Positions 22,449-63,407 are shown, numbered from the stretch's first letter. The stretch is 64,000 nucleotides of DNA from a phage (GCA_025829515.1 GCA_025829515.1_4865.1); one strand, 5' to 3'. A program made the numbers and translations. The notes: generated by a model from the sequence alone, not told the origin.

Positions 22449-22481
22449 TGCAAACACTCCTAATCTGTAATAAAACGGAGA

Positions 22482-22542
22482 CCGCCCTCCCAATAACGGA
22501 AGGGCGGTTTACCTACGGACTACCCGCCCGTAGGCAGTCCGT
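22482..22542 (-). promoter_or_regulatory. paired intergenic hairpins between the fibre genes (partial terminator / RNA processing candidate)
   Basis: CCGCCCT...AGGGCGG and ACGGACT...AGTCCGT stems (with alternative CCTACGG/CCGTAGG pairing); in the minus sense they are followed by a U-rich tract just before the RBS of gene 22448. Confidence 0.35.
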
Positions 22543-33321: not shown

Positions 33322-33639
33322 ATGTCTTTATTTCAAACCATTAAAAGTGCATTAGAGCGTAATGATGCAGACAGTGCCTTTACTGCGTTGCAGAAAGCCA
33401 GTAACGGGAAGCTAGACAGCGTCTTTGCTAACAATCAAAGAATGCGCTTTTACAAAGTCGGGGAAGTAGACCAGTTCTACGACGAACTGTTTACGGGGGT
33501 AGTGCAAAGCGCGGTATACGCCATGCCGACTGAACAATTAAGTCAGTTTGAAAAAGGGATGCGTTACCAGCGGTTAAGTAACGACTACGCATTACTGAAT
33601 CTGGCTATCGATGACTGCATCGTACTGGTTGTATACTAA
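33322..33639 (+). CDS. hypothetical protein (105 aa)
   Basis: ATG with GAGGAG RBS. Confidence 0.45.
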   Translation: MSLFQTIKSALERNDADSAFTALQKASNGKLDSVFANNQRMRFYKVGEVDQFYDELFTGVVQSAVYAMPTEQLSQFEKGMRYQRLSNDYALLNLAIDDCIVLVVY

Positions 33640-33759
33640 GTTTTTACAGATAGATGTCATCTTAGTGAGCATTGTGTATAAACCCACAGTCGCTTAAACA
33701 CCAACTGTTCTTTAGTAACAGTTTTTGGTCACTTTAGTGTACTTTAAAGGAAATACCGA

Positions 33760-34998
33760 ATGTATAACGAATACGAATTAGTTTACCAGACACCGAAAGA
33801 AGCATTCTTTAATGCAGTAATTACTAACTCAATTGTACTGTTGGGAATGCAGTTCAGTGTTCGGAGTATGGCTTACAGCGATGTAACGTGGCAGGATTGT
33901 GCGTACCTGCCACAAAAGCTCTCAACCGTTGTCGAAAAGCGGCTGCTTGACAAAGGGGAAGTAAAGTGCCGTTTAGGCCACCACGTCTCTGACTTAGCGC
34001 CGTGGGTTGAGTTAACCATGACGTTCGAAGGGGATTCGCGGGTAGTTTACCTATCAGGTAATCAAAACATCGGACGCGCCATTGCTGAGGGTAACACAAT
34101 GTGGGTGCACTACATTCTTACTCTGCTGACCGGTAAACCGGTGTTCGAGTTAACACCTGACATGCCGGCACTAAGCGATAGCAATTGGTGGACTGGCGGA
34201 GAGCTGAATACAGGGTTTAATGAGAAATTACAAAACTTTAATTCAGAGCGACTCGATGTTGATGCGGAAGTGTTGGTGCAGCAGTTCCCCGAATTCACTG
34301 CGTACCAAATTACTACCGTATGGAATAGAGCGGTAAGCAAGCGCAGATTCTACACAAAAAATGCACCGCGTGAAGCAGCCAAACCTGTGGAAATTGACGA
34401 AGACACCAAAGAAGCACTGCGTGATCTAGCCACCATAGCCAATGATGGCAATACGATGTTCTGGACATCTGATGAAAACGCTAACCGTTATTTCGGTGAG
34501 ATGTTAGACGCCGATGTTTGGTCAGTAATGCCGATAGCAGAGCCTGGAAACCTTAAAGATTACTATAAGGTCGAAAAGGATGAGGTGGTTAATGAGAAAG
34601 TCGTCGCTCTTCTTGCTGTTTTCCGCGAAGTTATCCAGTCAGAAATACTGTTAAGCATCTATAAACGCAAGACCCCGGCCAGTGAAAATGACACGGCGTG
34701 GGTATTTGACTGTCGACCAACAAATACAACATCGCCCGCGTTCTGGATACAGGTGTCAGGAACGCTGCAGCGCGTGAACAGTTCCGTTGTTTCTCGCCTG
34801 CCGGATTCTGAAATGCGCTCCGTTGCCGAACCTGCTTATTTGATGTCGGCGAAGGCGGTACGGGACGCGTGGGGTACCAGCGAACTGAAACAGTGGCACT
34901 ACGACGCCATCATCAAATGGGGTGTTAACAATGGCTGGAAAGAAGTGACTAAGTACGGCCGTCAACTGTTGTTTGTCGCAGATTTGCGTTTACTGTAA
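33760..34998 (+). CDS. hypothetical protein (412 aa)
   Basis: ATG with AAAGGAA RBS; followed by a terminator. Confidence 0.5.
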   Translation: MYNEYELVYQTPKEAFFNAVITNSIVLLGMQFSVRSMAYSDVTWQDCAYLPQKLSTVVEKRLLDKGEVKCRLGHHVSDLAPWVELTMTFEGDSRVVYLSGNQNIGRAIAEGNTMWVHYILTLLTGKPVFELTPDMPALSDSNWWTGGELNTGFNEKLQNFNSERLDVDAEVLVQQFPEFTAYQITTVWNRAVSKRRFYTKNAPREAAKPVEIDEDTKEALRDLATIANDGNTMFWTSDENANRYFGEMLDADVWSVMPIAEPGNLKDYYKVEKDEVVNEKVVALLAVFREVIQSEILLSIYKRKTPASENDTAWVFDCRPTNTTSPAFWIQVSGTLQRVNSSVVSRLPDSEMRSVAEPAYLMSAKAVRDAWGTSELKQWHYDAIIKWGVNNGWKEVTKYGRQLLFVADLRLL

Positions 34999-36819: not shown

Positions 36820-37407
36820 ATGACAGAACGTATTTTACGACTGCAAGAGAACAGGTTAGAAGACCTGCACGTAATGCGTAGTCGTGGCTTGTTCCCAGTG
36901 GGGCTTGACGTAAGTGGGTTAATAACTTCTGCGCAGCACGGGGACAAGGTCATTACAATGCATTCACGTGGGAACGAAGTGGTCTCTGCGATTTTCATCG
37001 ATAAGGTTATTCCGGACTCGGAAAGTGGTAAGGCGGCGGGACACATCATTTACGAATACTTTCGCAGCATTCTATACGAGGAAAAGATAAACGTCAAAAC
37101 GTTTATGGAATACGCTAAGCGAAATAACTACATCGATGCGCGGCTGATGGTCACGGAAGGCACTCCAACTATAAACGGTAAAGTCCACCATCGTTTACTT
37201 GGAGCACAGTTGCCGAGACTAGGCGAGATACCAACGACGATAGAGCTGCACCAAAAAACAGATTGGCGACACAAAATCGAAGTGCTTCACAAGCTTTACG
37301 ATTTATCGATCGTTCAAATCAAACTGGTGGACTTTACGCCTGCAAATATGCAAATCGCTAAGCGCGCGTTGGGTTTTCGTATTCTTAACACAACCTTCAC
37401 ATTGTAA
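36820..37407 (+). CDS. hypothetical protein (about 195 aa)
   Basis: Start chosen at ATG 36820 (GAGGTG RBS); the track begins at GTG 36811. Confidence 0.45.
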   Translation: MTERILRLQENRLEDLHVMRSRGLFPVGLDVSGLITSAQHGDKVITMHSRGNEVVSAIFIDKVIPDSESGKAAGHIIYEYFRSILYEEKINVKTFMEYAKRNNYIDARLMVTEGTPTINGKVHHRLLGAQLPRLGEIPTTIELHQKTDWRHKIEVLHKLYDLSIVQIKLVDFTPANMQIAKRALGFRILNTTFTL

Positions 37408-37457
37408 AATATCTCAGATATATATTACCTAGGTGAGAGTTAAGAGATTAACTCAAT

Positions 37458-37486
37458 GGCTACCTTCGGGTAGCCTATTCTTTTTT
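37458..37486 (+). terminator. rho-independent terminator (GGCTACC-TTCG-GGTAGCC, T-run)
   Basis: 7-bp stem, TTCG loop, followed by TATTCTTTTTT. Confidence 0.6.
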
Positions 37487-37511
37487 AAACCAATCGACTA
37501 TAGAGCAAAAC

Positions 37512-37913
37512 ATGACTATCAAGAAGTTCTTACAAACAGTAGTAGTTCTGGCCGCATGTGGTATCGCAGCAACTTATGCTTTCGATAAGCCAGACGTGAC
37601 TGAATACACATCAGCTGATTCGGATTATGGCATTGCGCCGAATGAAAAACCGGAACTGATGCGTGAGGTCGAACAGTTACAAATCTACAGACTGACGGAC
37701 GGTAAGAACTGCACAGGGCTGGTTATCGCTGATAAGAAATTGAAAATGTATCAGCGGTTAATCGACATATCGTGCAATCAACCAAAAGTCACCTCGGTCA
37801 GTGTATCGCCACTGGAATTACCGAATTTGGTTGCTGTGAGCTTTTATCACAACGATGTGCTCGTCGGTCGCATCACCCTCAATCGTGGAGATATCAAAAA
37901 TGAAATGCAATAA
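37512..37913 (+). CDS. small secreted protein / lipoprotein, Cys-containing family member 1 (133 aa)
   Basis: N-terminal signal sequence with possible lipobox LAAC; first of four tandem secreted small proteins. Confidence 0.45.
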   Translation: MTIKKFLQTVVVLAACGIAATYAFDKPDVTEYTSADSDYGIAPNEKPELMREVEQLQIYRLTDGKNCTGLVIADKKLKMYQRLIDISCNQPKVTSVSVSPLELPNLVAVSFYHNDVLVGRITLNRGDIKNEMQ

Positions 37914-39221: not shown

Positions 39222-39350
39222 CCGAAAAGTTTTCAGACAGATGTTATAACGTGAGATGACGACCCATCTCACTTTGGCCCTGCGGTGATTTCCCCAACAC
39301 TTAGCCGCAGGGTCCTTTTTAATCGACTATTACTCGTAAGGATTAAGCAA

Positions 39351-39851
39351 ATGAACATGAACATTCTCGACGATACCCGTTCTTCTTTCTTTACTCAGAT
39401 GAACGTCAATCCCGAACGTACCCGTGCCATTCTTTCCACTGGCTGGAAGTTAAAGCTGTTAGGCGAGTTAACCCTAAACCGCACCGACTGGCCAGAAGAA
39501 GCGACCGTATTGATTAACAGCATTCACAGCGAGTGGCTAGATGCTGCGTTGAATGCCCCACAACTACGTCCGTACTATCGGATGCTTCATGCGGGTTATG
39601 AAGTATACCGCAAAGGTTGGTACGCTGCAGCCACTTATTGCAAAACCCCTGAAGGTCGTGAAGACAACACTGTCGACCACGTATTAGTAAACAATTTCTG
39701 GGGCGACCAAATCGAAGTCTTACAACTTTCCACCGGTGACCGTATTCCGGCCTGTGAGTTATTCGAAACTAACGCACAAATGTACGAACCATATGCAATG
39801 ATTCGTGGCCGTAAGGTCCCAATCATTTCCCTTATGCATATGGGGCTGTAA
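39351..39851 (+). CDS. hypothetical protein (about 166 aa)
   Basis: Start chosen at ATG 39351 (AAGGA RBS) rather than the upstream track start. Confidence 0.45.
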   Translation: MNMNILDDTRSSFFTQMNVNPERTRAILSTGWKLKLLGELTLNRTDWPEEATVLINSIHSEWLDAALNAPQLRPYYRMLHAGYEVYRKGWYAAATYCKTPEGREDNTVDHVLVNNFWGDQIEVLQLSTGDRIPACELFETNAQMYEPYAMIRGRKVPIISLMHMGL

Positions 39852-45476: not shown

Positions 45477-45725
45477 ATGCAAAAAACAATCATCGGAATA
45501 ACGGTTGGTTCTTTCTGTGGCTTCCCTACCCCACAAACAGAACCCCAATATTTGGGCGCAGGCAAACCTGACCCGGAAGTCCGTAAGTTGCGCGAAGAAG
45601 CAAAAGCCAGAGTTCTTACTGAGCTGGAATCGTTGCTTCAGTCTCCGGTTATTTCACAATGGGGTATGGCAATAGATGTCACTCGAACTGATCGACGAGG
45701 CCGTTATCTCCCACGACTTGTTTAA
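45477..45725 (+). CDS. hypothetical small protein (82 aa)
   Basis: TAAATG stop/start junction with AAAGGAA RBS; its 3' end overlaps the next gene by 50 nt. Confidence 0.3.
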   Translation: MQKTIIGITVGSFCGFPTPQTEPQYLGAGKPDPEVRKLREEAKARVLTELESLLQSPVISQWGMAIDVTRTDRRGRYLPRLV

Positions 45726-46176
45726 CGCGCCTGAGCGCTTCAAGGTCGTTACAGTTAACTGCGTTGGTGCAATGGGAAGGGGCATTGCCTTGGCGTGCCG
45801 AGAACGCTTCCCATCGCTTTATAATGACTATCGCCAGAAATGCCGTAAAGAGCAAATCGTTATCGGTGAGGTCTATTGTTATCCTGAGGAAGGGGTAATA
45901 CTCCTTCCTACTAAAACCCATTTTCGCTATAAATCGCAGATTTACTATGTCACGTCCGGCATTGATGCGCTGGCGCGACTAGGGGAAGACTTAGAAGGAG
46001 GGATTGCGATACCACCCCTAGGGATGGCTAACGGTTGGTTACGTTACCATGAGCGATTGGAAATCTTTATACACTTACAGAAACGACTACAGCACACGGA
46101 GCAGACTTATCGATTCTATTTACCGGACACCTTGCTGAGGGAAGCAGAGAAAATCATCCCAAATAGTTTCAAATAG
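45676..46176 (+). CDS. macro-domain-like protein (putative ADP-ribose binding / processing), 166 aa
   Basis: VNCVGAMGRGIA (compare macro-domain NAAN..L..GGGV.GAI) and IAIPPLGMANGW (compare IAFPAISTGVYG) match the two hallmark macro-domain motifs by eye. Confidence 0.45.
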   Translation: MSLELIDEAVISHDLFNAPERFKVVTVNCVGAMGRGIALACRERFPSLYNDYRQKCRKEQIVIGEVYCYPEEGVILLPTKTHFRYKSQIYYVTSGIDALARLGEDLEGGIAIPPLGMANGWLRYHERLEIFIHLQKRLQHTEQTYRFYLPDTLLREAEKIIPNSFK

Positions 46177-46186
46177 ATATTATCAT
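46174..46186 (+). promoter_or_regulatory. recurring AGATATTATC element (copy A)
   Basis: TAGATATTATCAT overlapping the stop of gene 45676; upstream of gene 46276. Confidence 0.3.
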
Positions 46187-46275
46187 CAGGGCACATTACA
46201 AAGGAGCACAATGCCGTCCGCGCCGTCTTCCCGGATTGGGAACGGAAAAGTATAAATCCGTTTGGAGATACATCC

Positions 46276-46998
46276 ATGTTTCGCACCATTTTATTTCTTC
46301 TGGTAGCAATGACTACGTTCAACAGCAACGCTTCTTACCAGACCACCAGTAACAAACACCAAAAAGAATTCGTCCTTATCCAGGACCAGTTCAATGAGAT
46401 TAAACCTCTCATCGTCACCGCATCTCGAAAACAAGGCGTACATGCCGGGATGCTCGCGACCACCATTTATCGTGAATCCCGTTTTAATAAAAACGTGGGT
46501 AAGAATAAATCGAGCAGTGCTAGTAGTGTTGTCCAAATGACGACAGGCACTAAACGCTCCATGATACGTCTGTATGGGAAACAACTTAACATCCCAAAGA
46601 ATGCGGACCTTAATAAACCGAAGTATGCTGTACAGCTTGCTGCCGTTTACATGAAACACATCGAGGATCATCTGACAAAACAACTCAAACGCAAGCCGAG
46701 CACAGCCGAAATCGCTTTAGGCTACCGCTTCGGTGAGGGTGCTGCTGTTGCGATGATTAAAAAGAAATCACCGGTCGGGAAACGCTGGATGGCCAGCTAC
46801 CGAAAAGACGCAGCATTCTACGGTGCGAAAATGACACCACCGAAAGCTGAAACACGTCAGCTTGCTTTTGCGAAGGAAGACCGCGACCAACGCGTCGCTG
46901 AGCTTCAGAAAATCTGGGATACGCTGTACACCAAAATATCACCTGCGGCCGGTACATTACTGGCAAATAACACTATCATGAAAGGAGCATTGCTTTGA
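46276..46998 (+). CDS. secreted lytic transglycosylase-like (SLT-domain) protein, 240 aa
   Basis: Signal peptide MFRTILFLLVAMTTFNSNA; RESRFN (catalytic E-S), VVQMT (compare GLMQ) and LGYRFGEGAA (compare AYNAG) resemble the SLT domain motif order. Confidence 0.4.
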   Translation: MFRTILFLLVAMTTFNSNASYQTTSNKHQKEFVLIQDQFNEIKPLIVTASRKQGVHAGMLATTIYRESRFNKNVGKNKSSSASSVVQMTTGTKRSMIRLYGKQLNIPKNADLNKPKYAVQLAAVYMKHIEDHLTKQLKRKPSTAEIALGYRFGEGAAVAMIKKKSPVGKRWMASYRKDAAFYGAKMTPPKAETRQLAFAKEDRDQRVAELQKIWDTLYTKISPAAGTLLANNTIMKGALL

Positions 46999-47593: not shown

Positions 47594-47630
47594 GGTCAGA
47601 CCTTCGGGTCTGACCACCTTTTATTTAATT
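47594..47630 (+). terminator. rho-independent terminator (GGTCAGACC-TTCG-GGTCTGACC, T-run)
   Basis: Perfect 9-bp stem, TTCG loop, followed by ACCTTTTATTT. Confidence 0.6.
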
Positions 47631-49119: not shown

Positions 49120-49145
49120 CTACCTACTCCCTTGGGAGTAGGTAG
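49120..49145. terminator. bidirectional terminator hairpin (CTACCTACTCCC / GGGAGTAGGTAG)
   Basis: Stem of about 11 bp flanked by AAAAAATAAAAG upstream and TTCTTTTTTTCTTT downstream; between convergent genes. Confidence 0.6.
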
Positions 49146-52198: not shown

Positions 52199-52237
52199 TC
52201 CCTCTTACCTTCGGGTAAGAGGGGATTTCCTTTTTTT
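52199..52237 (+). terminator. rho-independent terminator (CCCTCTTACC-TTCG-GGTAAGAGGG, T7 run)
   Basis: 10-bp stem, TTCG loop, followed by GATTTCCTTTTTTT. Confidence 0.6.
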
Positions 52238-52239
52238 AC

Positions 52240-52270
52240 GTTAATAGTCAATAGTGTGATATATAATCTC
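52240..52270 (+). promoter_or_regulatory. promoter-like element (TGTGATATATAATC) immediately after a terminator
   Basis: TATAAT hexamer at 52262-52267 with TG a few nt upstream, 17 nt before the ATG of gene 52284; no clear -35. Confidence 0.3.
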
Positions 52271-53003: not shown

Positions 53004-54517
53004 TGAAAGACGTCGACGTAGCGGTTATTTATACCGATGGTAGTCATACTGAGTCCCCGAAAGGTTCGGGGGCTGGTATTCATGGTTATTTATTCAACAA
53101 CGGAGATTTGGAAGACAGTCAGGCTTATAGCCATCCGGGTGTTTCAGAACGGATTACCACTGTTGGATACAAAAAAGTGCCGCAGGATGTGAAGTGTCCG
53201 GAGTTGCCGGACACCGTTCAATTTGTCGACGCCGTTATTCCCGTTCCGAAAGAGTTCTACTCAGATGTGGGCGAGTTAATCGCCTTCATCACGTTGTTTG
53301 AGAACGCGCCCTTCCGCGCGAAGAACTATATCATCTACGTGGATGCCAGTTACGTTGTAAACACTTTTAACGAGTGGATAGACGGGTGGCATAAACGTGG
53401 TTGGGTTCGTGCTGACGGTACTCCGCTGGCGAACAAAGAACTTATTGTTCGTATCTGGGAAATCAAACAGCAGATGAAAAAAGAAGGACGGGGTGTTAAG
53501 GTTATCAAAATCAAAGGACACTCCGGCCACTACGGTAACGACCGGGCGGACGAATTGGCTAGAAAAGGTTCAGCCATCACAGCGACCAACGACGGCGTTC
53601 CATATCAGCCGTACTGGTCGAAGGATGAGTTGCCTGCATCCGCGGAACCCGAGCCCATCGCCGCTGGGATGAACCTTGCGGCATATCCGCCGGTTTGTAC
53701 GGTTAAATATTGCTATCCGTTGGTGAACGAGGACCATCCTACTGTAAAAGTGAAAGATGAAACTTTCTATTACATGTTTGGTGGCAACCATGCAAAGAAC
53801 AAGGACGACTTGGTGTTTATTGGGAAAATGATTCCTGATGCACACTTTTCCGTAATGTTCACTAAACAACCGTGGGATAACATCTACACGATTGTAAACA
53901 ACCACGCCGCCCTGGCATGGAAAGATACACCGAAGATGCGGCAGTATGATCCAATCGGTGTTGTTAACAATGAGTTCGTTAAACGTAAGAAGTTCGTTGA
54001 CGTGGCAGGTGATGGATTACCGGCAGACAAGATGCATTTCAGTGGAGAAGATTCCAATGTCTGGTTCTTTGAAGACCTGGCCATCTCCAGAATGCTTCGC
54101 CCGCCCTTATTGTCGTACCGTGCGCTGGATATTCGTGACGAACTCGCTACAACGTTGAGAGATGTTCTGCATCAGGAAAAGGGTTATGTCTTAAATGATA
54201 TTACTGACTTGTTGTTCGATGACAAAGGTAAGCCTGTTAAGGAATACTACCGTAGCGTCGATAAGTCAATAACGTTAAAGATTGACTTTCCGATGGGTAA
54301 ACGACCTGTCTCGGTTATTTTGACGCGTGGTATTGATATTCCATCGCGTACGGAAATCAACCGTATTAAAGAACCCGAAGGCCGTTATTACATCGCGGTG
54401 TGTCGTCCTGAAAAATACTACATCCGTTACTTCTTAATCTATATCGGTAAAGAGTATCATGGGTTGTGGTGTGCGTATTACGCAAACCGTCGCATACTGC
54501 GAGAAGAAGAGGTGTAA
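53003..54517 (+). CDS. RNase H (type 1) domain protein with about 300-aa C-terminal extension (504 aa)
   Basis: N-terminal VIYTDGS...GAGIHGY, and KIKGHSGHYGNDRADELARKG matching the RNase H1 catalytic C-terminal motif (H..G..N..AD.LA); TAATG overlap with the upstream gene. Confidence 0.6.
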   Translation: MKDVDVAVIYTDGSHTESPKGSGAGIHGYLFNNGDLEDSQAYSHPGVSERITTVGYKKVPQDVKCPELPDTVQFVDAVIPVPKEFYSDVGELIAFITLFENAPFRAKNYIIYVDASYVVNTFNEWIDGWHKRGWVRADGTPLANKELIVRIWEIKQQMKKEGRGVKVIKIKGHSGHYGNDRADELARKGSAITATNDGVPYQPYWSKDELPASAEPEPIAAGMNLAAYPPVCTVKYCYPLVNEDHPTVKVKDETFYYMFGGNHAKNKDDLVFIGKMIPDAHFSVMFTKQPWDNIYTIVNNHAALAWKDTPKMRQYDPIGVVNNEFVKRKKFVDVAGDGLPADKMHFSGEDSNVWFFEDLAISRMLRPPLLSYRALDIRDELATTLRDVLHQEKGYVLNDITDLLFDDKGKPVKEYYRSVDKSITLKIDFPMGKRPVSVILTRGIDIPSRTEINRIKEPEGRYYIAVCRPEKYYIRYFLIYIGKEYHGLWCAYYANRRILREEEV

Positions 54518-54518
54518 C

Positions 54519-55259
54519 ATGTTGCGAGTCGTGAGTGAATCGCTCACGCTCCACACACAAAGTCTGATTAACTGTGTGGAGCAATACGGATGGATGTCGT
54601 GGATGGCAACGAACCGTGAGTTTGGTGCTGCGCCCATGGAAGATTACGACGTGTTGTACAAGTGGGGATTTGAAGCGGCTTGTGATGTTGTGGCAGAGCT
54701 GGTTACCGAAACAATTGCGCGTTACAACGCAAGATGTGATGAACCGATGCCTAAACAAGTCCCGCCGCAAATACCTCCGCTACCGACAATCGATCGTGAG
54801 CATTGTCGAATCTGGACAATGGAAGAGTTGTACGACGAACACGTTAGAATGCTGAAACCGAACGAGCTAATAACCGGTGCGTTGAACTGGTTCTTACATC
54901 GGTTCTGGACAGAGTTGGTCGATGTGGCGGGTGACGAAGATAATTGTTCTCAGGTTATTTGGTACGATCGAGCGATGTTTCATCGCAGTCTTAAAGATCG
55001 TAGTCTCTGCAACCTGTATATTGTTGACCCGTGTGAAGACATTGTAAAGGTAGCAGAAGGTAACTCTTATTCCGACTTGGTGATGCCCGTGGTAGAAAAA
55101 CCGATGGGTATTTTCCTGCAGGGAGACGCTTGGGTTTTAACGGATGATATCTCGGGCTACCTGCTGGACCCGGATGACATTCACTCGGACGAACCTGATA
55201 CCATCGAGTATTTTCACTTTACAGAACAGGCAGCACGCTTCTTGCATCTCTTAAAGTAA
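54519..55259 (+). CDS. hypothetical protein (about 246 aa)
   Basis: Start chosen at ATG 54519 (GAGG RBS), 2 nt after the RNase H stop; the track start at 54459 would overlap it. Confidence 0.45.
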   Translation: MLRVVSESLTLHTQSLINCVEQYGWMSWMATNREFGAAPMEDYDVLYKWGFEAACDVVAELVTETIARYNARCDEPMPKQVPPQIPPLPTIDREHCRIWTMEELYDEHVRMLKPNELITGALNWFLHRFWTELVDVAGDEDNCSQVIWYDRAMFHRSLKDRSLCNLYIVDPCEDIVKVAEGNSYSDLVMPVVEKPMGIFLQGDAWVLTDDISGYLLDPDDIHSDEPDTIEYFHFTEQAARFLHLLK

Positions 55260-55262
55260 TCT

Positions 55263-55286
55263 GAGATAGATATTATCTACAGGGAC
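55263..55286 (+). promoter_or_regulatory. recurring AGATATTATC element (copy B), promoter/operator candidate
   Basis: GAGATAGATATTATCTACAGGGAC; the motif ends 36 nt before ATG 55313. Confidence 0.35.
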
Positions 55287-55312
55287 GTAACCTTAAGGAG
55301 AATTTATTCACG

Positions 55313-56047
55313 ATGCTTAAAGTCGAAGTGCCAGTGCTTTTAAACCTCACGCCCCAGTTCTTTGAAGCGTTGTTCGAAAAGCATTGGCCCGCGTTCGCGA
55401 AGAACGAACTAAAGGATAACCCACAGTGGTATCCACTGCGCGATGAATTCAAGTACACAGCCATCAACGTCTGTATAGAAGTCTTCACTGCGTGGTTACA
55501 AGAGATGTACGACTGCATCAACACCGAACGGTTGTTCACGCTAGAACATGTAGAGATTAATGTTGTTGACGTCTACGAAGGTTACACCTACGAAGAAGGC
55601 ATTACTGCCACGGGGTTAAGCCAACAAGACGTTGAAGAACAAATCTTTGCGTGGATCGAGTGGTTTACGGAAAAGTTGATGCTGGCTGATTTTGTCACGC
55701 AGGTGGAAGATGTATTCATCCCAATGTACGAGCGGTTAGCTGAGATACGTCGTAACCATCGTCTGCTCGGTTACTGGTATGACACTTATACCACCTCCTC
55801 AACACTGTGGTCTTCCGCTACTGCCGCATTTGGCATAACTGATGGCGATTACGATGTCGTTCATTCCGGCCCTTGGCAGTATGGTTTCGGCACCCTGTGG
55901 CACGAGCTGACCGATGCCATGTGTCTGGACTTTTATCTGTGTGAAGGTAAGTTTTACACGGATAACTGCGTGAGCCAAATTCCGAATGGTGCGATGGTGG
56001 TGATGTGTCGCATCCGTAAAGAAGTCGCTGAGAAACTAAACTACTGA
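55313..56047 (+). CDS. hypothetical protein (244 aa)
   Basis: ATG with AAGGAG RBS; preceded by a GATATTATC motif. Confidence 0.5.
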   Translation: MLKVEVPVLLNLTPQFFEALFEKHWPAFAKNELKDNPQWYPLRDEFKYTAINVCIEVFTAWLQEMYDCINTERLFTLEHVEINVVDVYEGYTYEEGITATGLSQQDVEEQIFAWIEWFTEKLMLADFVTQVEDVFIPMYERLAEIRRNHRLLGYWYDTYTTSSTLWSSATAAFGITDGDYDVVHSGPWQYGFGTLWHELTDAMCLDFYLCEGKFYTDNCVSQIPNGAMVVMCRIRKEVAEKLNY

Positions 56048-56060
56048 AGGAGTATTTAAA

Positions 56061-56438
56061 ATGACGCAAGACGAATTTGAAACGATGGTAAAACAGTATT
56101 ACAAAGAAGGTGTGATTCTCTATATTGTCGAACCGGGACAAGAAGCCTGGTTAAATAAAGCAACGCTGAGTGTCGCTATTCGTGGAGAAGTGACAGTAGA
56201 GATGCGCAATATGGCACGTCTTATTCGCGATACTGCGATTACTGGCGGTAAACTGGTGTCTCTTGCGCATTTCAGAACACAGGGTCGCGATCAGGTATCG
56301 CTGGATGCTGAAGTTGATGTCGTTGCTACTGTTGGTTTTGATTTAGATGGTCTTCCAGGCTCGAACCTTGTCACGATTAAGAAATGGCGTGGATACGATG
56401 CAATCCCATCGCCAGGGGTGTGGCCGGCAACCAACTAG
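56061..56438 (+). CDS. hypothetical protein (125 aa)
   Basis: ATG with AAGGAG RBS. Confidence 0.45.
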   Translation: MTQDEFETMVKQYYKEGVILYIVEPGQEAWLNKATLSVAIRGEVTVEMRNMARLIRDTAITGGKLVSLAHFRTQGRDQVSLDAEVDVVATVGFDLDGLPGSNLVTIKKWRGYDAIPSPGVWPATN

Positions 56439-56449
56439 AGGTGGTCGCT

Positions 56450-56857
56450 ATGTTAAAGGTGTATAGCGAGTCATTGATGGACTTGCAAGAGTATCTAAAG
56501 CATGTGGAAATTAACGGCAACCGTGGAATGATATACTCCATGGTTGTCGAGATTTTAATTAAAATCGTGCTTGTTTCATTCCACGTAGCAGAAAACGGCA
56601 CTGCTGTACCAGGAGATGTTTATAAAGGCGTTATTAAGCATCTTAGCGAGCGCTACAGTTGTTTACGTGAACCGGATATCTTTAATGAGGTGCAGCGTGT
56701 TGTGTTGCTTATCCTCGACAACCGTGAAGACTTGGCGTACAAACTTGCGCATGAATTGGCAGACACGTCACAGCACGGTGGACAACTGAAATATAACGTT
56801 GTGGATCTCGTAGCGTGCAGATACTGGTATACGCAGCCCGAGGTAAGTAACTTTTAA
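56450..56857 (+). CDS. hypothetical protein (about 135 aa)
   Basis: Start chosen at ATG 56450 (AGAGGTGG RBS) to avoid the overlap implied by the track start at 56384. Confidence 0.4.
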   Translation: MLKVYSESLMDLQEYLKHVEINGNRGMIYSMVVEILIKIVLVSFHVAENGTAVPGDVYKGVIKHLSERYSCLREPDIFNEVQRVVLLILDNREDLAYKLAHELADTSQHGGQLKYNVVDLVACRYWYTQPEVSNF

Positions 56858-56867
56858 GGAGCATTAG

Positions 56868-57407
56868 ATGCAAATCGTAATTGACTTCGCTCTGTCGGAG
56901 TCGAGACGTCAGCTGGATGAAATTCTGTTAGGATTAAAACGTGACGTGGAATTTGAACTTCACGATGCGTTGGCCGTCCACGAAAATCGTTTGTCTGACG
57001 AAATAGGTTCGGGTGTAGATGTGGCTATCTGTGACACTGGGGATATGGTAAATCAGCTTATTGAACGTATGTTCACGCGGCTGCGTAACATTCTGAACTA
57101 TCCCCATCGTTTTGAACTGGTAGAAGGGACGGACCAAATCACCGACTTATTGAGTGAAGCCTTTGATAAGGTTGGTGAATCTCTGGCGGGGTTACATCAA
57201 GAGAACCTGGGCGAGACATATGTTGCTGTGGTCATTAACGGGCAAACGTCGAACGTTACGGACACGGTAACATGGTCCGATATCGTTGACCAGCCAATCA
57301 TTGACAAAATCACCAAGTTGTATCGTGAAGCAGAAATGAAAGTGCTGGCTATCTGTCGCCGTGAGTTGTTATACCTCGGTGAGAAATACGGGAAACCTAT
57401 TGAATGA
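56868..57407 (+). CDS. hypothetical protein (179 aa)
   Basis: ATG with AAGGAG RBS. Confidence 0.5.
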   Translation: MQIVIDFALSESRRQLDEILLGLKRDVEFELHDALAVHENRLSDEIGSGVDVAICDTGDMVNQLIERMFTRLRNILNYPHRFELVEGTDQITDLLSEAFDKVGESLAGLHQENLGETYVAVVINGQTSNVTDTVTWSDIVDQPIIDKITKLYREAEMKVLAICRRELLYLGEKYGKPIE

Positions 57408-57946
57408 AAATATTCATTGATTTACTCGATGACGAATTTCGTGAAATATTTCCAGCGGCGTTGTTCGAGTTTAAACGCAAGTGTGAAGACTATCTGATAC
57501 CGAAGAATATCGATCGTCAGCACCTCGCTGGGCTTATCTCTGCAGCGTATGTCAATATCGCGGTAAATGAAGTTCATCAACTCGCGCAACGTATTGCGTG
57601 TTTCGAATACAACGACGAAGACATTGAAGACGGTTTCCTGCAGTCTAAGATGGGTCGCTTCTCACTCGAACTCAAGACCGATGAAGTTATTGATAAGGTC
57701 GGTAAAGCGTTTGATGAAATGAAAGACATCGAAATGATGATTAAGATGTCTGGACCGGAAGCAGGCCCATTGAAAGAAGCGTGGGAACATCTCAACCGCG
57801 ACGAGTATAAAGAGATGTACATGGGTGAGTTCACCACCATGCTACGTCACCTCGAAGCACAGGTCTGGGAGCATATCGTTTCACGTCTGAAAGAAATACT
57901 GATTGTGGTCGAGCCAATGCAGCCTCTTGCTATCAGTAAATTCTAA
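57404..57946 (+). CDS. hypothetical protein (180 aa)
   Basis: ATGA overlap with the upstream gene; acidic protein. Confidence 0.5.
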   Translation: MKIFIDLLDDEFREIFPAALFEFKRKCEDYLIPKNIDRQHLAGLISAAYVNIAVNEVHQLAQRIACFEYNDEDIEDGFLQSKMGRFSLELKTDEVIDKVGKAFDEMKDIEMMIKMSGPEAGPLKEAWEHLNRDEYKEMYMGEFTTMLRHLEAQVWEHIVSRLKEILIVVEPMQPLAISKF

Positions 57947-57969
57947 ATCGGTCCGAAATAAAATAAAGC

Positions 57970-57998
57970 CTACCCACTCCCGTAAGGGGAGTGGGTAC
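57970..57998. terminator. bidirectional terminator hairpin (TACCCACTCCC-GTAA-GGGGAGTGGGTA)
   Basis: Stem nearly identical to the hairpin at 9318; flanked by AAATAAAATAAAG upstream and CTTACTTTTTATTTTTTG downstream. Confidence 0.6.
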
Positions 57999-58008
57999 TG
58001 CTTACTTT

Positions 58009-60716: not shown

Positions 60717-60992
60717 ATGCGTTATCAGAAAGATATTGTAGAGCGTCTGTGTCTGGGTCTCGCTGGTATTAGCCAGGAACTTAGCACCGCGTTCCATAAC
60801 GAGTTCTCAGCACCGCGACATGCACTGTCTGAATTTAGTCATCAGGTAAATGCCCATTACGGCAACCTGATTAATGATAAACCGAAGGTTGATGCGGTCG
60901 GTGTGCCTGAACACAATGAAGATATCCCGTACTGGATTGAAGACCTGGAACGTGTGGTTCTTCCAGTGCTCCGTGAGAGGATGAAAAAATGA
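60717..60992 (+). CDS. hypothetical protein (91 aa)
   Basis: ATG with TGAGGA RBS. Confidence 0.45.
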   Translation: MRYQKDIVERLCLGLAGISQELSTAFHNEFSAPRHALSEFSHQVNAHYGNLINDKPKVDAVGVPEHNEDIPYWIEDLERVVLPVLRERMKK

Positions 60993-61657
60993 GATTAGAC
61001 CCGGCACGGCGAAAAAAAGCAGAAGCTTATGCTTTACAGTTACTGAACTTAGTTGACCCGACCGGGATTAACGCGGAAGCTGCCAAGCGCGCTTTCTCAC
61101 GAATGTCTGACGAAGAGTTCAATCGTCTGCGCGAAGGGTTGCCTGTTTACAACCCAACTGGTGGCAAGGTCAAAATTGACCATATGCGCAATATTAAAAT
61201 TTGCGAAGCGATGGGACTGAACTTGTGTCAGCGCCTGTGGCTCACGGAACCGAAAACCGGTATCCTACAGCGTACCCGTTACCCCCATTTAGTCTTCCGG
61301 CTACCTGCACGTCGCCAGACGCAGATGCAAGAGAAGAAAATGGCGGTGGCGAAGAACGATAAAGTCCGCGATAAACTCTCGGGTCAGGTAGTAGGGCCTT
61401 CCAAAGCTTCGGGTGTTTCGTTTCCAGAAGCGTACATCATGTACTCGGATGGACACGACTCAACGCTCCAGGAGTTCCTGTGGGCGCGTGGTGGTAACGA
61501 TACGTTACAACGTGCGTTCTATCAATCGCTACGGCAAACCGGTAAAGGTCGCATCAACCTGGAAGGGGCTGAGCGTACCAGTTCAAAAGCGCCGCGTACA
61601 TGGTCTTCGTACTTTAAAGCAATGCACATCGGTAACAACTTAGGACGCCCGGAATGA
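60989..61657 (+). CDS. hypothetical protein (222 aa)
   Basis: ATGA overlap with the upstream gene. Confidence 0.5.
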   Translation: MRLDPARRKKAEAYALQLLNLVDPTGINAEAAKRAFSRMSDEEFNRLREGLPVYNPTGGKVKIDHMRNIKICEAMGLNLCQRLWLTEPKTGILQRTRYPHLVFRLPARRQTQMQEKKMAVAKNDKVRDKLSGQVVGPSKASGVSFPEAYIMYSDGHDSTLQEFLWARGGNDTLQRAFYQSLRQTGKGRINLEGAERTSSKAPRTWSSYFKAMHIGNNLGRPE

Positions 61658-62382
61658 GATTAGGACGCCGTTTCTTAGTCGATATCGACACAATCTTCGA
61701 TACACGAATTGGTTGGGCGAAAGTGCTGCAGCCTGATGTATTAGAGAAGCTTGATTTAGAAGTGTATCGGATGCGGTTCACAGATGCGTGGGCCGAAGTG
61801 GTAGGAATTCAGGACTGGAATAAAAAGTTCGCGGAGCGTGATAAACGCGCGTTGCAGAACGCGCAGCCAACAGAAATGTTGCTTACGCTAAAGAACGAAG
61901 TACAGGCAATGTTAATGACGATACAGATGCACGCTCCTATTGAGCGACCTGTCTTAACGTTTAACCTGTGGCCATACGCTGATCTCGATGATGAAGAACG
62001 TCATGCGTTTTTGGAAGAACTGCGTTACTACTATAACGAAGTGCAAGTAGACGTCGTTGTTATTCCTCACAGCGATCTTACACCAGGACGACTTGCTTCT
62101 GCATGGGACGGTTGGATAATGTACGATTGGTATCCGTGGATAGAACAACACGCGAACCATTTCCAGAAACCGATTCCGGATTTCACCATTACCCGACCGA
62201 GTATGCTGACCAGCGAATTAACGGAAGAAGCCATCGCGCAAATAAAAAGAGATAAGGTGAACCCCTTTAAGGAGTCCACCCGTTTTCTTGCTCAATACGT
62301 CGGTACTGACGTAAAGGACACTGCGCTGTTTAGTCTTCGTCGTCATCAGCAGGACGACGACTCGCAAACGCAGACGCCATGA
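61654..62382 (+). CDS. hypothetical protein (242 aa)
   Basis: ATGA overlap with the upstream gene. Confidence 0.5.
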   Translation: MRLGRRFLVDIDTIFDTRIGWAKVLQPDVLEKLDLEVYRMRFTDAWAEVVGIQDWNKKFAERDKRALQNAQPTEMLLTLKNEVQAMLMTIQMHAPIERPVLTFNLWPYADLDDEERHAFLEELRYYYNEVQVDVVVIPHSDLTPGRLASAWDGWIMYDWYPWIEQHANHFQKPIPDFTITRPSMLTSELTEEAIAQIKRDKVNPFKESTRFLAQYVGTDVKDTALFSLRRHQQDDDSQTQTP

Positions 62383-62800
62383 TCTGGTCAACGTCAATCT
62401 TTTCGCCTACTGGTGCCAACTCACCTTCTTTCGGAGGCCGTACTGCGGCAATCTGTGGGACGGTGGGTTGGTATCCATTATTTAAATCTTCTTCATCGTC
62501 GTGACGTTTGATACCAACGCCAGCACGGGTCATTAAGAAGCCGTTTAAACTGTTGGCCAAATCTTGAGTCGCCTCAGCGCCTTTCTCAGCAGCTTTAATT
62601 TTCCGCTTCGTCATGACCTGTTTGTCGATGCCGTTGATTAGGCGTTCGATTCGGTCGACGGCTTTTAAGTCTTTGTGTACTTCACCGTCGTTCACCATAT
62701 CTGTGACGAGCTTAACGCGTAGCTGTTGTGTTTGGCGGAGAAGCGAATCTTCGTTGTCCACATCTCCGTCGAACGCTTGGTATTTCACTTCTTCGCTCAT
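62330..62800 (-). CDS. hypothetical acidic protein (156 aa)
   Basis: ATG with TGAGG RBS; its 3' end overlaps convergent gene 61654-62382 by 53 nt. Confidence 0.45.
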   Translation of the reverse strand: MSEEVKYQAFDGDVDNEDSLLRQTQQLRVKLVTDMVNDGEVHKDLKAVDRIERLINGIDKQVMTKRKIKAAEKGAEATQDLANSLNGFLMTRAGVGIKRHDDEEDLNNGYQPTVPQIAAVRPPKEGELAPVGEKIDVDQIMASAFASRRPADDDED

Positions 62801-62827
62801 GGGATAACCTCATCTCAAAAAGAACTC

Positions 62828-62850
62828 AGACAGATATTATCTATCCGAGA
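62828..62850 (+). promoter_or_regulatory. recurring AGATATTATC element (copy C), promoter/operator candidate
   Basis: AGACAGATATTATCTATCCGAGA; the motif ends 36 nt before ATG 62877, the same spacing as copy B. Confidence 0.35.
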
Positions 62851-62876: not shown

Positions 62877-63407
62877 ATGCTTTTTAAATGGCTTTCAACA
62901 CTCCTGCGTCGTAAGGCTGTAGAAGCTCGCAGACGCTCTTTGGAGGCTGAGTTTCATAAGAATACCCATAACACCCTGCACAGAGTGATGGTGGGCTTAG
63001 AACTCATTACAGAGCCTCTGGAATATAATGGGAAAGAATACCTTCCTTTTTCATTGCGTGGACAACTCGAATTACGTATTCGAGATTTTGACACGTTGGT
63101 GGAGCGATTGGAATTCTTCATTTCTGAGTATAACCGTGTATCCAGTAGCAACATTCCCAATCAACGTTGGTTAGAGTTGCCTGAGGCAATCGATAGAAAA
63201 GGAGAGAGTTCAGAACCACGATGGCTTGATCATTATTTCGGTGCATCCGATCCTGAAGTCGCGCGCGATAAACTGCGCACAGTCTTCGCTATGTTAGAAC
63301 TGTATCAGCGTGCATTTGATAAACAAACACCCGAACAGGATACGCTGTTTAATCAAACCGCACATATCTTCCGCGAGTTAGAAGTGATAGTGGAACACTA
63401 TCTCTAA
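62877..63407 (+). CDS. hypothetical protein (176 aa)
   Basis: ATG; preceded by a GATATTATC motif 36 nt upstream. Confidence 0.5.
   Translation: MLFKWLSTLLRRKAVEARRRSLEAEFHKNTHNTLHRVMVGLELITEPLEYNGKEYLPFSLRGQLELRIRDFDTLVERLEFFISEYNRVSSSNIPNQRWLELPEAIDRKGESSEPRWLDHYFGASDPEVARDKLRTVFAMLELYQRAFDKQTPEQDTLFNQTAHIFRELEVIVEHYL

What the first reader, a model, noticed from the sequence alone, without database searches (positions are those of the whole stretch)
55263..55286. Recurring (T)AGATATTATC(T)A element upstream of genes, twice at identical spacing
Copies at 46174-46186, 55263-55286 and 62828-62850 share GATATTATC in a partially palindromic context (AGATA-TTATCT). Copies B and C both end exactly 36 nt before the downstream ATG. 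Related variants occur at 52255-52270 (TGTGATATATAATC, directly after a terminator) and 37411-37432. This is likely a phage promoter -10-type element or an operator for a phage regulator.
Basis: seen in the sequence. Interest (0 to 1): 0.5.

Follow-up and report, generated by a model that had tools for sequence, protein, structure and literature searches.

The report
Jumbo-phage early promoters (virion RNA polymerase)
The recurring GATATTATC element is the core of a roughly 35-base promoter that giant phiKZ-like phages use to switch on their first genes with an RNA polymerase carried inside the virus particle; this class of element is already described in related phages, so the finding is real but ordinary.

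Summary
GATATTATC occurs 5 times in the window against 0.36 expected. The three intergenic copies (46176, 55269, 62833) belong to a longer, strand-specific motif: aAAa.atTTCAGATA[G/T]ATATTA[T/C][C/T]TAgGTGAG.

The window is a SPN3US-like jumbo phage (Seoulvirus, 99.5% identical to Salmonella phage 1252). A weight-matrix scan finds six members in the window, all on the + strand and all just upstream of genes.

SPN3US carries 24 copies, all on one strand. They sit in front of the three non-virion RNA polymerase gene clusters I identified, and none sits directly in front of a gene annotated as structural. The copies are conserved at syntenic positions in a different genus (Erwinia phage Asesino).

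The consensus matches published virion-RNA-polymerase early promoters of phiKZ, 201phi2-1, OBP, N1M2 and AR9. AR9's mapped form, TATATTAT-N6-G(+1), places the start at the near-invariant G 14 nt after the core begins.

The promoter reading is supported and the operator reading is not. This is a new member of a known kind, of low interest. Side notes: stem-loops at the predicted 5' ends, terminators inside two leaders, and a TAATCGACYATTA box.

The parts
33635..33669 (+). Early-promoter copy 1. Core GATGTCATC at 33653-33661; predicted start G at 33667. Lies between the stop of ORF 33322-33639 and the gene at 33760.
Evidence: 43.6 bits with the full matrix and 32.9 bits with the independent matrix. 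Sequence.
37403..37437 (+). Early-promoter copy 2, TATATTACC subclass. Core at 37421-37429; predicted start G at 37435.
Evidence: Best score in the window: 50.7 bits and 45.2 bits with the independent matrix. Sequence.
37437..37454 (+). Stem-loop at the predicted 5' end of the transcript: GAGTTAA-gaga-TTAACTC.
   Evidence: Fold and sequence. The same feature is seen in about 11 of 24 SPN3US leaders and 26 of 60 IMG/VR leaders.
37458..37486 (+). Intrinsic-terminator-like hairpin inside the leader: GGCTACC-ttcg-GGTAGCC followed by TATTCTTTTTT. It lies between the promoter and the ATG at 37512.
   Evidence: Fold and sequence. 5'UTR terminators that give short RNAs are reported in phiKZ and 201phi2-1.
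39222..39255 (+). Early-promoter copy 3, degenerate. Core GATGTTATA at 39240-39248; GTGAG lies one nt closer (N5 spacer); predicted start G at 39253.
   Evidence: 18.0 bits on the core block, within the range of genome shuffles (mean 15.0, maximum 21.7). Membership therefore rests on context: TTTTCAGACA upstream, GTGAG downstream, a hairpin at 39251-39272, and its intergenic position. The orthologous copy is SPN3US 167511.
39276..39320 (+). Terminator-like hairpin in the leader of copy 3 (GGCCCTGCGG...CCGCAGGGTCC then TTTTT). It is followed by the box TAATCGACTATTA at 39320-39332 and the ATG at 39351.
   Evidence: Sequence, fold, box scan.
46158..46192 (+). Core GATATTATC at 46176-46184; predicted start G at 46190. 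It overlaps the stop codon of ORF 45676-46176. Weakest clear member (CAAATA in place of CAGATA).
   Evidence: 35.0 bits. 22.1 bits with the independent matrix, against a shuffle maximum of 20.0. Sequence.
55251..55285 (+). Core at 55269-55277; predicted start G at 55283; AAGGAG at 55295-55300; ATG at 55313 (30-nt leader).
   Evidence: 46.2 bits. The motif is nearly invariant in orthologous regions of SPAsTU, pEa_SNUABM_29 and Asesino, whose flanks are about 65% identical.
62815..62849 (+). Core at 62833-62841; predicted start G at 62847; ATG at 62877 (30-nt leader). Lies in a divergent intergenic region.
   Evidence: 43.7 bits and 37.0 bits with the independent matrix. Sequence.
33760..34998 (+). 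First gene downstream of copy 1 (412 aa, function unknown).
37512..37913 (+). First gene downstream of copy 2 (133 aa, function unknown).
39351..39851 (+). First gene downstream of copy 3. The start is taken from the SPN3US annotation; the ORF listing gives a longer GTG-initiated frame from 39285.
46276..46998 (+). First annotated gene downstream of copy 4: SLT-domain transglycosylase (240 aa). The two-gene unit ends at the terminator-like hairpin 47594-47615.
55313..56047 (+). First gene downstream of copy 5 (244 aa, function unknown).
62877..63407 (+). First gene downstream of copy 6 (176 aa, function unknown).
60989..61657 (+). Context only: the ORF at the position of the SPN3US gene annotated 'RNA polymerase beta subunit' (RefSeq gp048, original gp218). 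That gene encodes one subunit of the virion RNA polymerase predicted to read these promoters. It has no copy of the motif directly in front of it.
   Evidence: Annotation. Subunit assignment from PMC5105663. The correspondence is by position and length; I did not align it.

Best explanation
The element is the early promoter of a phiKZ-related (SPN3US-like, Seoulvirus) jumbo phage.

Proposed mechanism: the split-subunit virion RNA polymerase is packaged in the capsid and ejected with the DNA. It is predicted to recognise a roughly 35-nt asymmetric signal with these parts:
- an A-rich patch near -30;
- TTT near -22;
- a continuous block, CAGATA[G/T]ATATTAY, from -20 to -7;
- a G start 6 nt after TATATTAY, within a conserved GTGAG.

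Transcription runs rightward into clusters of mostly uncharacterised early genes. Leaders are of two kinds: about 30 nt and unstructured (copies B and C, which explains their identical spacing), or 50-100 nt beginning with a stem-loop at the 5' end.

Shown here: the motif, its statistics, its orientation, its position, its conservation, and its sequence match to mapped promoters of relatives.

Inferred: the start site, early timing, and which polymerase reads it.
For: 1. Enrichment. The 9-mer occurs 5 times against 0.36 expected. The extended matrix gives five window sites at 35-51 bits. The next best is 8.6 bits, the reverse complement of copy C, and the shuffle maximum is 9.2. A matrix built only from the 18 SPN3US sites outside the window's region still scores them 22-45 bits, against a shuffle maximum of 20.

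2. Identity of the genome. The window is 99.5% identical to Salmonella phage 1252 and 96% to SPN3US. SPN3US encodes virion and non-virion split RNA polymerases.

3. Orientation and position. SPN3US has 24 copies, all on the + strand, 23 of them intergenic and co-oriented with the next gene (with the annotation).

4. Which genes follow. Copies precede the three non-virion polymerase gene clusters I identified: original gp22-23, gp34-35 and gp76-77. None directly precedes a virion polymerase gene. None of the 22 genes immediately downstream is annotated as structural, whereas about 19% of SPN3US genes are. In phiKZ the non-virion polymerase subunits are early-gene products.

5. Match to published promoters. 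The consensus matches predicted or mapped early promoters of relatives:
- N1M2: TTTCARRYAKATATTATYWAAGTGWA
- OBP: TTTYARRYAKATATTATYWWADTG
- 201phi2-1: TTTRARR_BTATATTACDWHDGTG
- phiKZ: TATATTAC (all four from PMC7058600)
- AR9: AAATATATATTAT-N6-G(+1), mapped by dRNA-seq and primer extension and insensitive to chloramphenicol (PMC5312081).

6. Direct check against phiKZ. The SPN3US matrix hits the site upstream of PHIKZ054 at 28.9 bits, against a shuffle maximum of 17.3, in the same register: TTGAGATTTATATTAC.....TG. That site is presumably the early promoter called P54E in PMC4666361.

7. Layout. The -10/-20/-30 arrangement fits descriptions for phiKZ and 201phi2-1.

8. Purifying selection. 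Copy B is nearly invariant across genomes that are about 65% identical. Asesino, a different genus, has 7 hits at the 7 positions syntenic with SPN3US in its first 50 kb.

9. Spread. The 19-mer TTCAGATAKATATTAYYTA occurs in 68 IMG/VR stretches, mostly several per 200-246 kb contig.

10. Start site. The G at core+14 carries 1.9 bits. Stem-loops begin at nt 1-3 from that G in about 11 of 24 SPN3US leaders and 26 of 60 IMG/VR leaders. Mean folding energy there is -4.6 against -1.8 for shuffles, p = 6.5e-8.
Against: - There are no transcript data for this phage or for any Seoulvirus in the literature I could search. Start sites, timing and the polymerase are inferred by homology.
- According to the sources read here, no virion RNA polymerase of this phage family had been purified (PMC5312081, 2017), and my later searches found no promoter-binding study.
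- In 201phi2-1 not every non-virion polymerase gene has an early promoter directly upstream, so the 'precedes non-virion polymerase genes' argument is not universal.
- Copy A (46176) and the degenerate copy at 39240 score close to the noise ceiling. AR9 data show that a single deviation can inactivate a predicted early promoter, so individual weak copies may be silent.
- Two copies are followed by terminator-like hairpins before the gene, so firing of the promoter need not mean expression of the gene.
Confidence: 0.88

Rival explanations
1. The motif is a promoter, but for the non-virion RNA polymerase (middle or late class), or it is read by both phage polymerases.
For: No direct timing data exist for this phage. 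In 201phi2-1 some non-virion polymerase genes are driven by middle promoters. AR9 has genes with both early and late promoters.
Against: The middle and late motifs known in relatives are short and different: TATG(+1) and AAAATTACC or TACT near -22 in phiKZ, and AACA-N6-TA/G in AR9. The motif here matches the early class position by position. Purified phiKZ non-virion polymerase gave robust run-off transcription only from the late promoter template, not from the early (P54E) or middle ones. No copy directly precedes a structural gene.
Confidence: 0.05
2. The motif is a strong host sigma-70 promoter (TATTAT as the -10 hexamer), used by Salmonella RNA polymerase at the start of infection.
For: The core contains TATTAT, a 5-of-6 match to TATAAT. 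Rifampicin insensitivity has not, to my knowledge, been shown for SPN3US itself.
Against: The sigma-70 consensus scan calls none of the copies in 45-64 kb on the + strand, and its total count equals chance: 26 found against 25.2 expected. There is no -35 hexamer. The strongest conservation (CAGATA at -20 to -15, and GTGAG at the start) lies where sigma-70 promoters are not conserved. Essentially the same motif is kept in phages of Pseudomonas, Klebsiella, Erwinia and Bacillus. phiKZ infection is resistant to rifampicin.
Confidence: 0.03
3. The motif is an operator: a binding site for a dimeric phage DNA-binding regulator at the palindrome AGATA-T-TATCT.
For: The GATATTATCT subclass forms an 11-13 bp dyad. 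SPN3US encodes an HTH protein (RefSeq gp165), itself preceded by a copy of the motif.
Against: The dyad is absent from the TATATTACY subclass, which contains the highest-scoring copies and the ones closest to phiKZ. All 24 copies have one orientation relative to the downstream gene. Conservation extends asymmetrically from -30 to +3. A promoter-overlapping operator on the palindromic subclass alone is not excluded.
Confidence: 0.03
4. The copies are chance recurrences of a short A+T-rich word.
For: Two of the five exact 9-mers are chance matches inside a coding region.
Against: 0 of 100 shuffles reach 5 copies. The extended matrix separates members from everything else by more than 20 bits. 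The copies are conserved at syntenic positions in another genus.
Confidence: 0.005

Closest known systems
Early promoters of Pseudomonas phage OBP and Klebsiella phage N1M2 (predicted; PMC7058600, Table 2)
   Same: The consensus is almost the same base for base, and in the same register: TTTCARRYAKATATTATYWAAGTGWA against TTTCAGATA[G/T]ATATTA[T/C][C/T]TAgGTGAG here. Both include the G/T alternative at the first core base, the upstream W-rich patch and the downstream GTG. Copy number is similar (31 in N1M2, 24 in SPN3US). In N1M2 the motif also precedes RNA polymerase beta-subunit and lytic transglycosylase genes, as it does here.
   Different: The hosts and genera differ. Those promoters are also predictions only. 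Position 7 is more often C here, in the TATATTACY subclass.
phiKZ early promoters (TATATTAC; 28-32 sites, three with mapped starts)
   Same: Same core, same spacing to an upstream TT.AGAT block, and the same downstream TG at core+13/+14. Both are described as an extended -10 with a T-rich element upstream of -19. Both sit in front of genes such as the non-virion polymerase subunits.
   Different: phiKZ is 37% G+C (first 50 kb), so its motif stands out less. The CAGATA block is looser there (AAGAT, GAGAT, AAACAG). phiKZ start sites are measured, whereas those here are inferred.
AR9 early promoters, AAATATATATTAT-N6-G(+1) (dRNA-seq and primer extension; PMC5312081)
   Same: They share the TATATTAT core and the G start 6 nt after it. 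This anchors the predicted start sites here. Transcription there is independent of new protein synthesis, which points to the virion polymerase.
   Different: AR9 has uracil in its DNA, infects Bacillus and forms no phage nucleus. Its upstream part is AAATA rather than CAGATA.
201phi2-1 early promoters and 5'UTR-derived small RNAs (ONT-cappable-seq; PMC11512511)
   Same: Conservation at -10, -20 and -30. Early promoters sit upstream of hypothetical genes. Premature termination within 5'UTRs yields short RNAs, which parallels the promoter-hairpin-terminator layout at 37421 and 39240.
   Different: Only six early promoters were detected experimentally there. Whether the window's leader terminators act on the phage polymerase is unknown.
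T4-type 'promoter-early stem-loop' (PeSL) cassettes (recalled from memory, not checked here)
   Same: A repeated early promoter immediately followed by a stem-loop, scattered between early genes of unknown function.
   Different: PeSL promoters are read by host sigma-70 holoenzyme. There is no sequence similarity. No role in recombination has been shown here.

Membership tests
phiKZ-related jumbo-phage virion-RNA-polymerase early promoter | Highly conserved A+T-rich block of about 10 nt with the core [T/G]ATATTA[C/T], centred near -10 | tested here: met
   The core columns carry 1.0-1.8 bits each across 23 SPN3US sites. The core is identical to published consensuses and to phiKZ sites read directly.
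phiKZ-related jumbo-phage virion-RNA-polymerase early promoter | Conserved start nucleotide 6 nt downstream of the conserved block (G+1 in AR9; reported also for phiKZ and phiR1-37) | tested here: met
   At the sequence level only. The G at core+14 (6 nt after TATATTAY) carries 1.9 bits, and TG is present at the same place in phiKZ. The actual 5' ends were not measurable.
phiKZ-related jumbo-phage virion-RNA-polymerase early promoter | Additional conservation near -20 (T-rich) and -30 | tested here: met
   TTT at -23 to -21 and a near-invariant A at -29. This matches the descriptions.
phiKZ-related jumbo-phage virion-RNA-polymerase early promoter | Tens of copies per genome, intergenic, co-oriented with the downstream gene at the heads of gene clusters | tested here: met
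   24 copies in SPN3US, all on the + strand, 23 of them intergenic. 6 copies in the window (with the annotation). For comparison: 28-32 in phiKZ, 31 in N1M2, 41 in AR9.
phiKZ-related jumbo-phage virion-RNA-polymerase early promoter | The genome encodes both a virion and a non-virion multisubunit RNA polymerase | tested here: met
   From annotation and literature only. SPN3US carries eight CDS annotated 'RNA polymerase beta subunit'. Original gp42/218/240/241/244 form the virion enzyme, and gp35 and gp77 are non-virion subunits. The ORF at window 60989-61657 lies at the position of gp218.
phiKZ-related jumbo-phage virion-RNA-polymerase early promoter | Drives early genes, including non-virion polymerase subunits, rather than virion structural genes | tested here: met
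   By position only. Copies precede original gp22-23, gp34-35 and gp76-77. None of the 22 downstream genes is annotated as structural, against about 19% genome-wide.
phiKZ-related jumbo-phage virion-RNA-polymerase early promoter | Transcripts appear within minutes, without new protein synthesis, and are resistant to rifampicin | not testable with these tools
   This needs infection experiments. No Seoulvirus transcriptome was found in the held literature.
Bacterial sigma-70 promoter | -35 and -10 hexamers with a 16-18 nt spacer | tested here: not met
   None of the three copies lying in 45-64 kb (46176, 55269, 62833) is called on the + strand, and the number of calls equals chance.
Operator for a dimeric DNA-binding regulator | Dyad symmetry shared by all copies, and function independent of orientation | tested here: not met
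   The dyad is present only in the GATATTATCT subclass and absent from the TATATTACY copies. All 24 copies have one orientation.

The most novel reading that the evidence does not exclude
The promoters may fall into two functional classes.

The first class is GATATTATC copies with short, unstructured leaders of 26-30 nt. Their palindrome could double as an operator for shutting off early transcription.

The second class is TATATTACY copies whose transcripts begin with a stem-loop. In at least two window cases (37421 and 39240) these run into an intrinsic terminator before the gene. Such units could make abundant short early RNAs, or be controlled by antitermination.

The box TAATCGACYATTA sits 27-29 nt before the ATG in most of its leader copies. 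It could be an undescribed translation signal or second-promoter signal shared by several jumbo-phage lineages.
Probability: 0.2. Interest if true: 0.45.

Novelty: new member of a known kind. Interest (0 to 1): 0.15.

Why it matters
It gives a ready map of predicted early transcription units for SPN3US-like phages, which are used as genetic models and as Salmonella biocontrol candidates. The map comprises six predicted start sites in this window and 24 in SPN3US. It flags the genes behind them, almost all of unknown function, as candidates for host takeover. It also supplies defined templates for future biochemistry on the virion RNA polymerase, whose mode of promoter recognition is still unknown. 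It does not change current understanding: a review states that such a motif can be found in every jumbo phage that encodes its own RNA polymerases (PMC7598289), and near-identical consensuses have been published for OBP and N1M2.

Tried and rejected
It contains a TATAAT hexamer only 16 nt from the ATG and is not a member.
- The coding copies at 17292 (- strand) and 20136 (+ strand) have no extended motif.
- The sigma-70 reading was rejected by the consensus scan.
- I looked for a published SPN3US or Seoulvirus promoter or transcriptome and found none in the held library.
- The papers most likely to show it were not held: Lavysh 2016 (AR9 genome), Ceyssens 2014 (phiKZ) and Cornelissen 2012 (OBP). 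I therefore cannot say whether the SPN3US consensus itself has been printed.
- Supplementary start-site tables for phiKZ were not held. The start offset was taken from the text of the AR9 paper instead.
- I tested whether TCGACYAT is a genome-wide second promoter motif. The 8-mer occurs 28 times against 17 expected. The extended box has only about 9 members, mostly at a fixed 27-29 nt from the ATG. It looks tied to the translation start rather than to a promoter class, and I did not pursue it further.
- The minus-strand pseudo-copy at site C (GATAATATC) breaks an invariant position and is judged probably inactive.
- Pfam and PHROGs searches gave no function for the downstream genes apart from the SLT transglycosylase.

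Full report
**Observation.** GATATTATC is present at 46176-46184, 55269-55277 and 62833-62841 on the + strand. The window holds 5 exact copies against 0.36 expected, and none of 100 dinucleotide-preserving shuffles reaches 5. The other two copies (17292 on the - strand, 20136 on the +) lie inside the 1742-aa ORF 17265-22493. The window is not AT-rich; G+C is 44-52%.

**What the genome is.** The region 54000-58000 is 99.5% identical to Salmonella phage 1252, 99.3% to the SPFM phages and about 96% to SPN3US. These are Seoulvirus, phiKZ-related jumbo phages of about 240 kb. I loaded the whole SPN3US genome with its annotation. The window corresponds to roughly 128-192 kb of SPN3US. Such phages carry two split-subunit RNA polymerases. 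One is packaged in the virion and transcribes early genes; the other is made after infection (PMC7598289; PMC5105663).

**The real extent of the motif.** SPN3US has 12 exact copies of the 9-mer. Ten of them share about 35 nt of flanking similarity on the same strand. An iterated weight matrix converges on 23 sites scoring 34-57 bits. Nothing else in 240 kb scores above 9 bits, and all 23 are on the + strand.
- The consensus is aAAa.atTTCAGATA[G/T]ATATTA[T/C][C/T]TAgGTGAGa.
- In the window the same matrix finds five sites, with the first core base at 33653, 37421, 46176, 55269 and 62833, all on the + strand (35-51 bits). The next best is 8.6 bits, which is the reverse complement of copy C, and the shuffle maximum is 9.2.
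- To avoid circularity I rebuilt the matrix from the 18 SPN3US sites that lie outside the window's region. The five window sites still score 22-45 bits, against a maximum of 20.0 in 100 shuffles.
- The next hit (39240, 7 bits) turns out to be a sixth copy in which GTGAG lies one base closer. It has the upstream TTTTCAGACA, the downstream hairpin and an intergenic position. Its core-block score (18.0 bits) is within shuffle range, so this call rests on context.
The variant at 52255-52270 is not a member.

**Position and orientation.** Every window copy lies between the stop codon of one + strand ORF (or a divergent - strand gene, for copy C) and the next + strand gene.
- In SPN3US all 24 copies (the 23 above plus the ortholog of 39240) are co-oriented with the downstream gene, and 23 are intergenic.
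- They precede original gp22-23, gp34-35 and gp76-77. RefSeq numbers equal 266 minus the original numbers. gp35 and gp77 are stated to be non-virion polymerase subunits. gp23 and gp34 are annotated as RNA polymerase beta subunits and are not among the five virion subunits.
- No copy sits directly in front of the virion polymerase genes (gp42, 218, 240, 241, 244).
- None of the 22 genes immediately downstream is annotated as structural, although about 50 of 264 SPN3US genes are.
- In phiKZ the non-virion polymerase subunits are products of early genes transcribed by the injected enzyme.
- The first genes downstream of five of the window's copies (the gene after 39240 was not searched) have no recognisable function, apart from an SLT transglycosylase.

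**Comparison with known promoters.** PMC7058600 tabulates predicted early promoters:
- N1M2: TBYAWWWWWTTTCARRYAKATATTATYWAAGTGWA
- OBP: BSHAWWWWWTTTYARRYAKATATTATYWWADTG
- 201phi2-1: ...TTTRARR_BTATATTACDWHDGTG
- EL: WTTTYAAACCTACATTATY
- phiKZ: TATATTAC

The window's consensus fits the N1M2 and OBP strings almost base for base. I checked phiKZ directly. Its first 50 kb carries TATATTAC sites with TT[G/A]AGAT immediately upstream and TG at core+13/+14, including one upstream of PHIKZ054. The SPN3US matrix scores that site 28.9 bits against a shuffle maximum of 17.3. A promoter called P54E is used as an early-promoter template in PMC4666361, where the non-virion polymerase gave robust transcription only from the late template. 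I assume P54E is this site.

For AR9, dRNA-seq and primer extension give AAATATATATTAT-N6-G(+1). Those transcripts are made in the presence of chloramphenicol, and the authors state that phiKZ and phiR1-37 also start 6 nt after the conserved block (PMC5312081). phiKZ and 201phi2-1 early promoters are described as conserved at -10, -20 and -30. That fits the three blocks seen here.

**Start site.** Transferring TATATTAT-N6-G(+1) places +1 at the G 14 nt after the first core base. That column is the most conserved outside the core, at 1.9 bits.
- Predicted starts are 33667, 37435, 46190, 55283 and 62847, plus 39253 for the shorter-spacer copy.
- Copies B and C then have 30-nt leaders. This is close to the 31-40 nt typical of phiKZ and explains the identical spacing.
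- Independent support: taking this G as nt 1, a stem-loop begins at nt 1-3 in about 11 of 24 SPN3US leaders.
- The same holds in 26 of 60 distinct leaders from IMG/VR jumbo contigs. Mean folding energy there is -4.6 against -1.8 kcal/mol for shuffles, with Wilcoxon p = 6.5e-8. The stem sequences differ between contigs.

**Conservation.** In SPAsTU, Erwinia phage pEa_SNUABM_29 and Erwinia phage Asesino (Erskinevirus), the intergenic region orthologous to copy B keeps the motif almost unchanged. It reads T.T.A.ATAGAT.TTATCT and is followed by the ribosome-binding site. The end of the upstream gene is barely alignable, and the BLAST matches of two of these genomes to the query are 66-67% identical. 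The first 50 kb of Asesino holds 7 matrix hits, all on the + strand, at the 7 positions syntenic with the SPN3US copies. This includes the one copy that lies inside a gene. The degenerate 19-mer TTCAGATAKATATTAYYTA occurs in 68 stretches of IMG/VR, mostly several per contig of 200-246 kb.

**Rivals.**
- A sigma-70 promoter is unlikely. The consensus scan calls none of the copies in 45-64 kb and finds no excess of sites. There is no -35 element. The same signal is also kept in phages of four host genera.
- An operator is unlikely. The dyad AGATA-T-TATCT exists only in the GATATTATCT subclass, and all copies have one orientation.
- A middle or late promoter is unlikely, because the known motifs of those classes are different.
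- Chance is excluded.

**Verdict.** The element is the early promoter of the phiKZ-related phage family, almost certainly read by the injected virion RNA polymerase. The kind is well known. I found no printed consensus for SPN3US-like phages in the held literature, but a review says such a motif is found in every phage of this type. I therefore file it as a new member of a known kind, of low interest. Timing, start sites and the polymerase involved remain inferences until 5'-end mapping is done.

Noticed in passing
window 37437-37454 and 39251-39272; SPN3US leaders; loci L007-L074: Transcripts predicted from many copies, mostly the TATATTACY subclass, begin with a stem-loop at nt 1-3. Stem sequences differ between phages: GAGAUUAC/GUAAUCUC, GAGAGU/ACUCUC, GAGCAUUGA/UCAAUGCUC. 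This suggests a conserved structure at the 5' end, possibly for RNA stability.
   Followed up: partly
window 37458-37486 and 39276-39320: Intrinsic-terminator-like hairpins with T-runs lie between the promoter and its gene in two leaders. The promoters would then yield short RNAs of roughly 50 to 70 nt unless termination is bypassed. Small RNAs derived from 5'UTRs by premature termination are reported for phiKZ and 201phi2-1.
   Followed up: partly
window 39320-39332 (a partial copy at 37492-37501); SPN3US 57148, 65457, 94282, 114032, 167594, 223320, 224199: A recurrent leader box, TAATCGAC[T/C]ATTA, sits 27-29 nt before the ATG in most of its copies and just upstream of AAGGAG. Some copies have no early promoter nearby. 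Similar strings occur in unrelated IMG/VR jumbo contigs (for example taatcgaccatttaaccta). Its function is unknown; the fixed distance to the start codon suggests a translation-related element.
   Followed up: partly
window 46211-46255: The leader of copy A contains a 14-codon mini-ORF (MPSAPSSRIGNGKV) with a strong AAGGAG ribosome-binding site, upstream of the transglycosylase gene at 46276. The same sequence is present in SPN3US, where a small gene on the opposite strand (RefSeq gp069) is annotated instead.
   Followed up: no
window 62825-62849, - strand: Copy C is embedded in an inverted repeat, CTCAGACAGATATTATCTATCCGAG. Read on the - strand it gives GATAATATC, with one mismatch at an invariant position. 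This lies 41 nt before the start (62800) of the divergent gene 62330-62800. A bidirectional promoter is conceivable but unlikely.
   Followed up: partly
SPN3US (L002) 25231 and Asesino (L079) 25977: One promoter copy lies inside a coding region (RefSeq gp236), about 275 nt before the next gene. It is conserved at the same place in Asesino, though with a lower score there (17.7 bits).
   Followed up: partly
SPN3US (L002, L003) 15619/15712 and 72491/72689: Tandem promoter pairs, 93 and 198 nt apart, precede two of the non-virion RNA polymerase gene clusters. The first pair is also present in Asesino (16342/16434). An unannotated small ORF with a ribosome-binding site follows the copy at 72491.
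   Followed up: no
window 49120-49145 and 52199-52224: Strong hairpins of 11 base pairs have T-runs on both strands. They look like bidirectional terminators between convergent or adjacent units.
   Followed up: no
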